Shown here: positions 10,396 to 10,782 of the stretch, in pieces
Layout: every line of letters begins with the position of its first letter
Position numbering within the stretch: the stretch's first letter is position 1
Origin: the human T2T-CHM13v2.0 reference genome, Homo sapiens
Reading direction: 5' to 3'
Length of the DNA: 64,000 bases
Assembly (NCBI GenBank): GCA_009914755.4
Contig: CP068257.2
Coordinates: 35,072,001 to 35,136,000 of the forward strand
Translations under genes and position numbers: made by a program
Notes under the pieces: generated by a model
Databases searched by the model: none
What the model was told of the DNA's origin: nothing
What the model saw: only the letters and a program-made list of their open reading frames with translations

Positions 10396-10782
10396 TTCTT
10401 TCTGGTTTTGTTCTTTCTCCCTTTCCTCCTTCCTTCCTTCGCCAGTGCATTCTGGTTTGGTTTGGATTTTTTTTCTCTCTTTCTTTCCTTTCTTTCTTTC
10501 TTTCTCTTTCTTTTTCTTTCTTTCTTCCTCTTTCTTTCATTCTCCCCTTCCTTCCTTCCTTGGCCCCCTCTCTCCCTCCCTCCTTCCTTCCTTCCTTTGC
10601 CAATGCATTGGTTTGTTTTCTTTCCTTTTCTGCTTTCCTTCCTTTCTTTGGAAGTTCACCCTGGTTTTGCTTTCTTTCTTTCCCCATCCCTTCCTTTCTT
10701 TATCCCTCCTTCCCTTCCTCCTTTTCTTTCTACGATTCCCTTTATTTTTCCTTCATTCCTCCCTCTTTTTGTCTCTTCTGGA
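10396..10782 (+). repeat. ~390-bp polypyrimidine (C/T-rich; CTTT, CCTT, TTTC units) tract on the coding strand, 290 bp downstream of the exon-1 donor. Potential H-DNA (triplex) former.
   Basis: ttctttctccctttcctccttccttccttcgcc ... tctttcctttctttctttctttctctttctttttctttctttcttcctctttctttcattctccccttccttccttcc ... Spurious ORFs on both strands reflect it (FLSFLSFF on plus, KERKEGRKE on minus). Confidence 0.9.

What the first reader, a model, noticed from the sequence alone, without database searches (positions are those of the whole stretch)
10396..10782. ~390-bp polypyrimidine/polypurine mirror-like tract inside the promoter CpG island, 290 bp past the exon-1 donor
A nearly pure C/T run built from CTTT, CCTT and TTTC units lies on the coding strand, so the nascent intron RNA is polypyrimidine. 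It splits the otherwise continuous 4.4-kb CpG island. Tracts like this form intramolecular triplex (H-DNA) and exclude nucleosomes. They can act as PTB or hnRNPK-type protein-binding platforms, as pause sites for transcription or replication, and are often length-polymorphic. Its position immediately downstream of exon 1 makes it a candidate regulator of promoter-proximal elongation or of exon 1 to exon 2 splicing across a 9.3-kb intron. It is also a likely PCR and sequencing problem region.
Basis: partly seen in the sequence, partly recalled or inferred. Interest (0 to 1): 0.55.

Follow-up and report, generated by a model that had tools for sequence, protein, structure and literature searches.

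The report
Ancient pyrimidine-rich repeat in SIM2 intron 1
A 387-base, 88% C/T low-complexity stretch just inside the first intron of SIM2 is real and sits at the same spot and on the same strand in all nine placental mammals checked, but only its composition is conserved, so it looks like a long-lived slippage-prone repeat rather than a proven regulatory switch.

Summary
The tract exists as described. Window 10396-10782 is 87.9% C/T on the SIM2 coding strand (7.3 SD above the window mean). It starts 288 nt after the exon-1 donor and holds 2 CpGs inside a CpG-rich domain. It is not "nearly pure": there are 47 purines and the longest pure run is 72 nt. Mirror symmetry is confined to that 72-nt (TTTC)n core (perfect arms 12 nt).

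An orthologous pyrimidine tract lies between conserved anchors in human, Colobus, aye-aye, mouse, a canid, pig, donkey, armadillo and aardvark. It is always on the coding strand, 81-402 bp long and 85-95% C/T. Duck and turtle lack it. Repeat motifs, length and mirror arms (5-25 nt) are lineage-specific. The human core differs from Colobus about four times more than the flanks do. Sequence similarity inside the tract is no greater than in the flanks.

Best reading: an ancient compound pyrimidine microsatellite, renewed by slippage, at the 3' edge of the exon-1 CpG island. Triple-helix (H-DNA) potential is an incidental property of expanded lineages. By published strand rules, its orientation is the permissive one for sense transcription. 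No function was tested. It is a new member of a known kind and of modest interest.

The parts
10396..10782 (+). Whole pyrimidine-rich tract in SIM2 intron 1: 387 bp, 87.9% C/T, 2 CpG.
   Evidence: An orthologous tract is present in nine placentals.
10396..10466 (+). 5' unit: a short C/T segment plus the boundary motif CCAGTGCATTCTGG (10442-10455) and a GGTTTGG spacer. It is 97% identical to Colobus.
   Evidence: (family D2). The motif CCAGTCCATTCTGG is found with <=3 differences near the 5' part of the tract in 6 of 9 placentals.
10467..10538 (+). 72-nt pure C/T run, an imperfect (TTTC)n array. It is the only segment with mirror repeats, so the only H-DNA candidate.
   Evidence: Perfect arms are 12 nt (10476-10487 / 10496-10507). 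One-mismatch arms are 18 nt.
10467..10562 (+). Hypermutable microsatellite core: 67.5% identity and 19 gap columns against Colobus.
10546..10597 (+). Imperfect (CCTT)n array, which reads (GGAA)n on the other strand. It includes two runs of four perfect units.
10585..10630 (+). Second copy of the boundary unit, TCCTTCCTTCCTTTGCCAATGCATTGGTTTG. It contains the perfect 12-nt palindrome CCAATGCATTGG at 10600-10611.
   Evidence: (D2).
10636..10681 (+). Third, degenerate copy of the boundary unit (..GGAAGTTCACCCTGGTTTTG..).
   Evidence: D2, 72% to reference. The same layout occurs in Colobus and aye-aye.
10670..10779 (+). 3' block of the tract that aligns with the short tracts of other placental orders (…TTTATTTTTCCTTCATTCCTCCCTC…).
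   Evidence: Similarity above a composition-matched null: canid-donkey z 10.7, donkey-armadillo 6.0, human-donkey 2.6.
10780..10797 (+). Purine-rich 3' anchor GGAGGAGGTGAAGGAGGG. Its core TGGAGG is conserved in placentals. It forms an 18-nt, 89% complementary inverted repeat with 10704-10721.
   Evidence: (I1).
9934..10108 (+). SIM2 exon 1 coding part (59 aa, 100% identical from human to duck and turtle). The donor GT is at 10109-10110.

Best explanation
The feature is an ancient compound pyrimidine microsatellite, that is, a low-complexity block in the first intron of SIM2. A pyrimidine-rich seed of roughly 80-150 bp already lay 220-300 nt downstream of the exon-1 donor in the placental ancestor. 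It sat at the 3' edge of the exon-1 CpG island, between conserved anchors (5' ..GAATTGTTC..AGTCCATTCTGG, 3' CTGTGGAGGGG).

Since then it has been kept pyrimidine-rich mainly by its own mutational behaviour. Replication slippage keeps producing new C/T repeat arrays: (TTTC)n and (CCTT)n in catarrhine primates, (TC)26, (CTT)15 and (CTTCTC)7 in mouse, and (CTTCC)5 in armadillo. In primates and mouse the 5' boundary unit appears to have been tandemly duplicated two or three times. C<->T transitions do not erode pyrimidine content.

Because it contains almost no CpG, it necessarily interrupts (primates, mouse, armadillo) or ends (canid, pig, donkey, aardvark) the CpG island.

Shown here: the position, strand, composition, orthology, the lineage-specific cores and the hypermutable human core.

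Inferred: any activity is composition-level and incidental. Candidates are a CpG-free stretch that disfavours nucleosomes and a C/U-rich, poorly structured stretch of nascent RNA that pyrimidine-binding proteins could occupy. H-DNA potential is a by-product that appears only where a lineage has expanded a long regular array (human core marginal, mouse (TC)26 clear).
For: 1. A pyrimidine tract with the same position and strand is present in all nine placentals sampled, covering all four superorders. It starts at +223 to +298 from the donor, is 81-402 bp long and is 85-95% C/T. The flanks are alignable.

2. The repeat motifs differ by lineage.

3. Mirror-arm length is not conserved: 5-25 nt.

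4. Against Colobus, the human core is 67.5% identical with 19 gap columns. The tract edges are 90-97% identical and the flanks 91-93%.

5. Sequence similarity inside the 3' block, measured against a composition-matched null, is equal to or lower than in the flanks. There is therefore no sign of extra sequence constraint.

6. The pyrimidine content of the non-repetitive parts looks compatible with neutral transversion decay. This is my own estimate from the mouse sequence (about 0.83-0.88) and assumed substitution rates; it was not computed.

7. The other long pyrimidine or purine tracts of the locus are retroposon-tail repeats. At the detection threshold used, none appears in aye-aye, donkey or armadillo, so this tract has a different and older origin.

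8. In the published survey, only 5.98% of human microsatellites were found in at least three non-primate species, and the authors concluded that most microsatellites are maintained by chance (PMC2839350).
Against: - Persistence across about 100 million years in every sampled placental is unusual. This includes mouse, where only 4% of intron 1 is blastn-alignable to human. It is the only one of the human locus's four long tracts to persist. That is also what selection on composition would produce.
- Neutrality was not rejected, but it was not demonstrated either. The transition/transversion contrast (36:9 in the tract against about 1:1 in the flanks) is confounded by aligning C/T-only sequence.
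- No chromatin, CLIP, nascent-RNA or population data could be consulted.
- Marsupials and monotremes were not sampled.
Confidence: 0.6

Rival explanations
1. H-DNA switch. Under negative supercoiling behind the polymerase the tract folds into an intramolecular triplex. The triplex excludes nucleosomes and pauses Pol II or replication forks, tuning promoter-proximal elongation of SIM2.
For: The human 72-nt pure C/T core has mirror repeats above composition expectation. The mouse orthologue carries (TC)26, which exceeds the C(TC)16 minimum for detectable H-DNA quoted in PMC9171763. H-motifs are over-represented in introns and promoters and can exclude nucleosomes (PMC9171763 and PMC11667243).
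Against: Mirror symmetry is absent from about 80% of the human tract. It is weak in five of nine species (perfect arms 5-9 nt), so the property is not what is conserved. The human arms (12 nt perfect, 18 nt with a mismatch) are marginal. For sense transcription the pyrimidine strand is the non-template strand, which is the permissive orientation (PMC11667243).
Confidence: 0.1
2. RNA-level platform. The 80-400 nt C/U-rich segment of the nascent intron binds pyrimidine-tract proteins (PTBP1, hnRNP C, PCBP/hnRNP K, U2AF2). This influences use of the exon-1 donor or the efficiency of removing the 9.3-kb intron.
For: Strand-specific C/U richness is the one conserved property. UCUU words are present in every species (5-31) and CCCU/UCCC words in every species (2-26). 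The tract itself is almost unpaired in the predicted fold. A conserved purine-rich 5'UTR segment (window 9607-9669) is the strongest predicted duplex partner of the tract in 6 of 8 species.
Against: Motif abundance and purine-pyrimidine pairing follow automatically from composition. The tract is 220-300 nt from the donor, beyond the usual range of donor-proximal U-rich enhancers (my knowledge). No conserved 3' splice-site-plus-exon arrangement lies downstream: the AG is preceded by G in most species, and the nearby GT at 10837 is not conserved. No CLIP data were consulted.
Confidence: 0.12
3. Directional barrier for antisense transcription. An antisense lncRNA starts in intron 1 and runs across the SIM2 TSS. 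In that direction the purine-rich strand is non-template, so the tract could promote R-loop or H-loop formation and dampen antisense transcription entering exon 1 and the promoter, while letting sense transcription pass (a 'transcriptional diode').
For: PMC12160609 places the promoter of antisense gene ENSG00000224269 at SIM2 TSS +2.5/+3.7 kb and describes it as an antisense RNA spanning the TSS. The tract would then lie inside that unit; this is an inference, because the exon structure was not seen. The strand rule comes from PMC11667243. The orientation is the same in all nine placentals.
Against: A fixed orientation is the trivial expectation for any orthologous sequence. The short, interrupted tracts of donkey and pig (81-90 bp, longest pure runs 20 and 45 nt) would make weak barriers. 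Whether the antisense RNA exists outside human is unknown. There are no strand-specific R-loop data.
Confidence: 0.08
4. DNA-level protein-binding or boundary element. The CpG-free purine/pyrimidine block delimits the exon-1 CpG island (a limit to Polycomb or CpG-binding-protein domains). Alternatively it supplies clustered GGAA (ETS-type), GGAAA or GGAGGG sites.
For: In every placental the 500 bp upstream is a CpG island (GC 0.63-0.70, o/e 0.70-0.89). The tract marks the fall in CpG density and is the island's 3' edge in four species. There are 21 TTCC words in human, including two runs of four tandem units.
Against: TTCC counts fall to 5-7 in mouse, canid, pig, donkey and aardvark, and CCCTCC falls to 0-1 in most species. 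A CpG-free repeat lowers CpG density by arithmetic alone. No paper links SIM2 with GGAA-microsatellite enhancers.
Confidence: 0.08
5. Retroposon-tail repeat. The tract is an expanded poly(A)/poly(T) tail of an Alu or L1, like many (GAAA)n and (GGAA)n arrays.
For: The other two long tracts in the window look like this. One (about 46930-47150) abuts the 3' end of an inverted Alu. The other (54510-54685) begins with A17.
Against: No retroposon body adjoins the intron-1 tract. Both flanks align across placental orders. The tract predates primate Alus, being present in Xenarthra and Afrotheria.
Confidence: 0.02

Closest known systems
Conserved (orthologous) microsatellites of mammals (Buschiazzo & Gemmell 2010, PMC2839350)
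   Same: It is a short-unit tandem repeat region retained at an orthologous position far beyond primates. Its conservation tracks that of the surrounding sequence. It belongs to the minority class found in at least three non-primate species (5.98% of human microsatellites).
   Different: What is retained here is a pyrimidine-rich low-complexity block, not one repeat motif. The motif is replaced in each lineage (TTTC/CCTT, TC/CTT, CTTCC).
PKD1 intron 21 pyrimidine-rich element (PyRE)
   Same: It is an intronic polypyrimidine tract on the coding strand of a human gene, with embedded H-DNA motifs.
   Different: The PKD1 element is 2.5 kb long with 23 perfect mirror repeats and is absent from mouse Pkd1 (PMC11667243). 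The SIM2 tract is 0.39 kb, has mirror repeats only in a 72-nt core, and is present in mouse and all other placentals sampled.
First-intron purine/pyrimidine repeats of FXN, FGF14 (GAA)n and UGT2B7 (GAAA)n
   Same: The location is a first intron. The repeat class is triplex-prone purine/pyrimidine. The human core motif TTTC is the complement of the UGT2B7 GAAA repeat.
   Different: Those are long pure arrays (unaffected UGT2B7 has about 26 units; pathogenic FXN alleles exceed 66 units), and in FXN the purine strand is the sense strand. The SIM2 array is interrupted (at most four perfect units) and the sense strand is pyrimidine.
Mouse genomic (TC)n H-DNA motifs mapped by S1-seq (PMC9171763)
   Same: The mouse Sim2 orthologue contains (TC)26, above the C(TC)16 minimum quoted for detectable H-DNA.
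   Different: The human tract has no (TC)n array. I could not confirm that the mouse locus is among the mapped S1-seq clusters: the held supplement is truncated and gave no hit.
GGAA-microsatellite response elements bound by EWS-FLI1 / ETS factors
   Same: Tandem TTCC (GGAA) units occur, with two runs of four.
   Different: The runs are at the lower limit of what is usually considered functional (my knowledge). They are not conserved outside primates and armadillo, and no literature link was found.

Membership tests
H-DNA-forming homopurine/homopyrimidine mirror repeat (H-motif) | One strand is essentially all pyrimidine. | tested here: met
   100% C/T over the 72-nt core 10467-10538. Only 87.9% over the whole 387 bp, with 47 interruptions.
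H-DNA-forming homopurine/homopyrimidine mirror repeat (H-motif) | Mirror symmetry with arms of at least 10 nt and a short spacer. | tested here: inconclusive
   Met marginally and only in the core: perfect arms 12 nt with spacer 8, and 18 nt with one mismatch. Absent from the remaining ~80% of the tract. Not conserved: arms are 5-9 nt in five of nine species.
H-DNA-forming homopurine/homopyrimidine mirror repeat (H-motif) | Structural transition under negative supercoiling or low pH (S1 or chemical reactivity). | not testable with these tools
   This needs wet-lab probing or S1-seq/ssDNA-seq data. The held S1-seq supplement gave no hit for the mouse locus.
Compound / imperfect microsatellite | Tandem arrays of 1-6 nt units. 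| tested here: met
   TRF finds (TTTC)18.2 at 80% matches and (CCTT)13 at 79% matches. Perfect runs reach at most four units.
Compound / imperfect microsatellite | Elevated indel and substitution turnover relative to flanks (slippage). | tested here: met
   Human against Colobus: the core is 67.5% identical with 19 gap columns, the flanks 91-93%. Motifs and length differ in every lineage.
Compound / imperfect microsatellite | Length polymorphism within the species. | not testable with these tools
   No second human haplotype could be retrieved.
Conserved non-coding element under sequence constraint | Sequence identity across orders clearly above that of neighbouring non-coding DNA. | tested here: not met
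   The 3' block of the tract gives z 0.9-10.7 against a composition-matched null. This is equal to or below the flanking 75-nt blocks in most pairs. The core is unalignable between orders.
Retroposon poly(A)-tail-derived (GAAA/GGAA)n repeat | Directly abuts the 3' end of an Alu, L1 or SVA and is restricted to the lineage of that insertion. | tested here: not met
   No element body adjoins it. It is present in all four placental superorders. By contrast, the window tract at about 46930-47150 abuts an inverted Alu, and the one at 54510-54685 begins with A17.
Canonical G-quadruplex / i-motif sequence | Four runs of at least three G (or C) separated by loops of 1-7 nt. | tested here: not met
   No match on either strand in 10300-10900.
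Described structured RNA family (Rfam) | A covariance-model hit at or above the gathering score. | tested here: not met
   The only hit in 8000-13000 is mir-9279 at 11287-11359, with 23 bits against a gathering score of 85 and E 0.72. It lies outside the tract.

The most novel reading that the evidence does not exclude
Strand-specific pyrimidine richness at the 3' edge of the SIM2 exon-1 CpG island is itself under selection in placental mammals. The tract would then work directionally. One version is a C/U-rich RNA platform that may pair with the conserved purine-rich 5'UTR segment (9607-9669) to loop out exon 1 and its donor. Another is a 'transcriptional diode' that lets sense SIM2 transcription pass but impedes the intron-1 antisense lncRNA through purine-RNA R-loops. 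In either case, slippage in the core would give a heritable tuning knob for dosage of this chromosome-21 transcription factor.
Probability: 0.1. Interest if true: 0.55.

Novelty: new member of a known kind. Interest (0 to 1): 0.3.

Why it matters
If the ordinary reading holds, the value is practical. The region is a sequencing and PCR hazard and probably length-variable. It sits 288 nt from the exon-1 donor of a dosage-sensitive developmental gene, and it should be masked or handled with care in methylation and variant calls on the SIM2 CpG island. The comparison also gives a clean example of composition outliving sequence: a pyrimidine block kept for about 100 million years while its repeat motifs are replaced. 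It also shows that H-DNA potential can be a lineage-specific by-product. If composition is selected, the locus would be a tractable case for studying how strand-asymmetric low-complexity DNA at a CpG-island edge affects sense and antisense transcription or first-intron splicing.

Tried and rejected
- **Human length polymorphism.** Exact-match scans for both tract borders found no human-derived copy in metagenome contigs or in bacterial/archaeal genome contigs. It remains untested.
- **Missing orthologues.** Look-ups for Macaca and Dugong SIM2 were not on record.
- **Mouse H-DNA data.** I searched the mouse S1-seq supplement for the Sim2 tract coordinates. There was no hit, but the stored file is truncated and my GRCm38 offset is from memory, so this is uninformative.
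- **Rfam.** Nothing relevant.
- **Cryptic exon.** I considered that the tract might be the polypyrimidine tract of a cryptic 3' splice site. I rejected this because the AG after the tract is preceded by G in most species and no conserved donor follows.
- **Conserved hairpin.** The 3' hairpin 10704-10721 / 10780-10797 has dG -29.8 and z -3.9. I rejected it as a conserved structure because in other species the purine anchor pairs with different partners and loop sizes of about 4-90 nt. That is generic purine-pyrimidine complementarity.
- **G-quadruplex or i-motif.** Rejected.
- **Retroposon-tail origin.** Rejected.
- **Transition/transversion test for selection on pyrimidine content.** The ratio is 36:9 in the tract against about 1:1 in the flanks. 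I judged this uninformative because mismatches between two C/T-only sequences are necessarily transitions.
- **Deeper homology.** A 23-nt turtle match (TTTTGTTTTCTTTCTTTCC, +532 from the donor, E 0.03) is too weak to claim a pre-mammalian seed.

Full report
**Locus and observation**

The window carries SIM2 on the + strand. A probe of the SIM2 protein maps exon 1 coding sequence to 9934-10108 and exon 2 to about 19388. The exon-1 peptide is 100% identical in ten other amniote SIM2 loci, and database hits are named single-minded homolog 2. The donor GT is at 10109. The tract therefore begins 288 nt into a 9279-nt intron.

Window 10396-10782 is 87.9% pyrimidine (T 208, C 132, G 30, A 17). It is the only 387-bp window of the 64 kb above 80%, about 7.3 sd from the mean. 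TRF reports imperfect (TTTC)n at 10468-10543 and (CCTT)n at 10546-10597.

The tract holds two CpGs (GC 0.42, o/e 0.20), against GC 0.68 and o/e 0.72-0.77 on either side. It is the only sizeable gap in CpG-island-grade 200-bp windows between about 5960 and 12390.

Two descriptors are overstated:
- The tract is not nearly pure. It has 47 purines and its longest pure run is 72 nt (10467-10538).
- Mirror symmetry exists only in that core. All perfect mirror repeats with arms >=10 nt and spacer <=8 lie in 10476-10538. The best arms are 12 nt, or 18 nt with one mismatch. This exceeds composition expectation (3.5% of shuffles), but it covers about a fifth of the tract.

**Anatomy**

The tract is not a single microsatellite. 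A unit of a (TCCT)n-type run followed by a non-repetitive motif occurs three times:
- copy 1, with CCAGTGCATTCTGG at 10442-10455;
- copy 2, with the perfect palindrome CCAATGCATTGG at 10600-10611;
- a degenerate third copy at 10636-10681.

Between copies 1 and 2 lies the (TTTC)n/(CCTT)n core. The last ~110 nt (10670-10779) is a non-tandem pyrimidine block. It ends at a purine-rich anchor, GGAGGAGGTGAAGGAGGG (10780-10797).

No canonical G-quadruplex or i-motif sequence is present. There is no Rfam hit in the tract. No retroposon body adjoins it.

**Comparative evidence**

I fetched SIM2 genomic loci for mouse, Colobus, aye-aye, a canid (Lycaon), pig, armadillo, duck, donkey, aardvark and a turtle.

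In all nine placentals a pyrimidine tract lies on the coding strand, starting +223 to +298 from the exon-1 donor. It sits between alignable anchors: upstream ..GAATTGTTC.. and AGTCCATTCTGG-like, downstream CTGTGGAGGGG, then AGGCCCAGGCxCTGCAGGCC and further blocks.

Between the anchors:

| Species | Length (bp) |
|---|---|
| donkey | 81 |
| pig | 90 |
| canid | 128 |
| aardvark | 147 |
| aye-aye | 201 |
| armadillo | 212 |
| Colobus | 355 |
| human | 373 |
| mouse | 402 |

Pyrimidine content is 0.85-0.95 in every species.

Duck and turtle have no such tract at this position. Similarity to sauropsid sequence is low-complexity only, apart from a weak 23-nt turtle match.

The repeat motifs are lineage-specific: (TTTC)/(CCTT) in catarrhines; (TC)26, (CTT)15 and (CTTCTC)7 in mouse; (CTTCC)5 in armadillo; and almost no tandem arrays in canid, pig, donkey and aardvark. 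Extra copies of the boundary unit are visible in primates and, more loosely, in mouse, but not in the other orders. This suggests an old tandem duplication in that clade.

The other long pyrimidine or purine tracts of the human locus look like retroposon-tail repeats. At the detection threshold used, none appears in aye-aye, donkey or armadillo, and those found in mouse, canid and pig lie at different positions. They serve as an internal control for ordinary turnover.

**What is and is not conserved**

*Conserved:*
- position;
- strand;
- pyrimidine richness;
- the location at the downstream edge of the exon-1 CpG island. The 500 bp upstream is island-grade in all nine species. The 500 bp downstream is island-grade only in primates, mouse and armadillo, with o/e 0.08-0.34 in canid, pig, donkey and aardvark.

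*Not conserved:*
- length;
- repeat motif;
- mirror symmetry. Perfect arms are 25 nt in mouse, 13 in armadillo, 12 in human, 11 in Colobus, 9 in pig, 7 in aye-aye, canid and donkey, and 5 in aardvark.

Against Colobus, the human core (10467-10562) is only 67.5% identical with 19 gap columns. The tract edges are 90-97% identical and the flanking intron 91-93%. The core therefore evolves several-fold faster than its surroundings.

Against a composition-matched null, the 3' block is recognisably homologous between some orders (canid-donkey z 10.7, donkey-armadillo 6.0, human-donkey 2.6). In most pairs it is no more similar than the flanking 75-nt blocks.

Intron 1 as a whole aligns at about 66-72% identity where it aligns. 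Alignable coverage ranges from 84% in donkey to 4% in mouse.

By my estimate, the pyrimidine content of the non-repetitive parts is close to what transversion decay alone would leave. This rests on the mouse sequence and assumed substitution rates, and was not computed. Selection on composition is therefore not required by these data, and it is not excluded either.

**Mechanism**

The best-supported account is mutational. An ancestral pyrimidine-rich seed persists because C<->T transitions do not erode it and because slippage keeps generating fresh pure arrays inside it. Being CpG-free, it necessarily interrupts or ends the CpG island.

This fits the published survey of human microsatellites. 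That survey found only 5.98% of them in at least three non-primate species and attributed most retention to chance and to overall sequence conservation (PMC2839350).

H-DNA potential then appears as a by-product where a lineage has grown a long regular array. The mouse (TC)26 exceeds the C(TC)16 minimum quoted for detectable H-DNA (PMC9171763). The human core is marginal.

[quoted passage not shown] In SIM2 the sense non-template strand is the pyrimidine strand.

The converse is worth noting. A published antisense lncRNA (ENSG00000224269) has its promoter at SIM2 TSS +2.5/+3.7 kb and is described as spanning the TSS (PMC12160609). By inference the tract is also transcribed as purine-rich RNA in the blocking orientation. 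That is the basis of the low-probability 'diode' rival.

The RNA-platform rival has some support: UCUU and CCCU/UCCC words occur in every species, the tract is nearly unpaired in the predicted fold, and it has strong predicted pairing with a conserved purine-rich 5'UTR segment. All of this follows from composition and is untested.

**Comparison with known systems and novelty**

The feature belongs to two well-known overlapping classes: compound microsatellites, and polypurine/polypyrimidine tracts with partial H-motif character.
- It resembles the PKD1 intron-21 pyrimidine-rich element in strand and intronic location. It is about six times shorter, far less mirror-symmetric and, unlike that element, present in mouse.
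- It shares first-intron location and the TTTC/GAAA motif with disease-associated repeats in FXN, FGF14 and UGT2B7. It is interrupted, and its sense strand is pyrimidine.

Full-text searches found no paper describing this tract.

I rate it a new member of a known kind. Its one unusual trait is retention in every sampled placental despite complete motif turnover.

**Limits**

No chromatin, CLIP, nascent-RNA, R-loop or human population data were available. Marsupials, monotremes and SIM1 were not sampled. The SIM2 TSS position, and hence the relation to the antisense unit, is inferred from the cited paper rather than from annotation. No function was tested, so every functional statement above is an inference.

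Noticed in passing
window 9607-9669 (SIM2 5'UTR, ATG-327..-265): A purine-rich stretch (CAGGAAGGCCGAGGCAGGAGAGGCAGGAGGGAGGAAACAGGAGCGAGCAGGAACGGGG). It is detected as a purine-rich tract in human, aye-aye, canid, pig and donkey, and related sequence is visible in the other placentals. In 6 of 8 species it is the strongest predicted RNA-duplex partner of the intron-1 pyrimidine tract (human dG -46 against a median of -25 kcal/mol). 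This is expected from composition, and its function is unknown.
   Followed up: partly
window 46930-47150 and 54510-54685: Two more long pyrimidine or purine tracts built from the same TTTC/TTCC (GAAA/GGAA) units. The first runs into the poly-T 3' end of an inverted Alu (47150-47200). The second starts as A17 and ends about 15 nt before the start of the probe alignment to the last coding exon (54700). At the threshold used, neither was detected in aye-aye, donkey or armadillo.
   Followed up: partly
window 10600-10611 and 10442-10455: A perfect 12-nt palindrome, CCAATGCATTGG, lies inside the tract. Together with the related CCAGTGCATTCTGG 158 nt upstream, it forms the main long-range stem in the predicted RNA fold. 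The ancestral form, CCAGTCCATTCTGG, marks the 5' border of the tract in other placentals.
   Followed up: partly
window 10704-10721 / 10780-10797: An 18-nt inverted repeat pairs a pyrimidine arm inside the tract with the purine-rich 3' anchor (RNA hairpin dG -29.8, z -3.9). The extended purine anchor is shared by human and Colobus. In other species a shorter anchor pairs with different partners.
   Followed up: yes
L004, L005, L008, L009 (canid, pig, donkey, aardvark), 500 bp after the tract: CpG o/e drops to 0.08-0.34 immediately downstream of the tract in these species. The CpG-rich stretch after the tract is seen in primates, mouse and armadillo but not in these four species.
   Followed up: partly
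L007 (duck) 1440-4880 and 11753-11889: Duck SIM2 has several pyrimidine and purine tracts in its promoter/5'UTR region (ATG-3562..-122) and one just after exon 2. It has none at the mammalian intron-1 position, where it carries an A-run of about 29 nt at about +230.
   Followed up: no
L001 (mouse) 5540-5760; GRCm39 chr16 about 93,887,214-93,887,434: The mouse orthologous tract carries (TC)26, (CTT)15, (CTTCTC)7 and (CTT)8 back to back, with a 132-nt pure pyrimidine run. It is a much stronger H-DNA candidate than the human sequence.
   Followed up: partly
L002 (Colobus) 4220-4925, 22368-22953, 49454-50337: Assembly gaps (runs of N) in the Colobus scaffold. One removes the 5'UTR purine segment, so Colobus could not be scored there.
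   Followed up: no
window 11287-11359: A sub-threshold Rfam match to mir-9279 (23 bits against a gathering score of 85, E 0.72). It is most likely chance.
   Followed up: no
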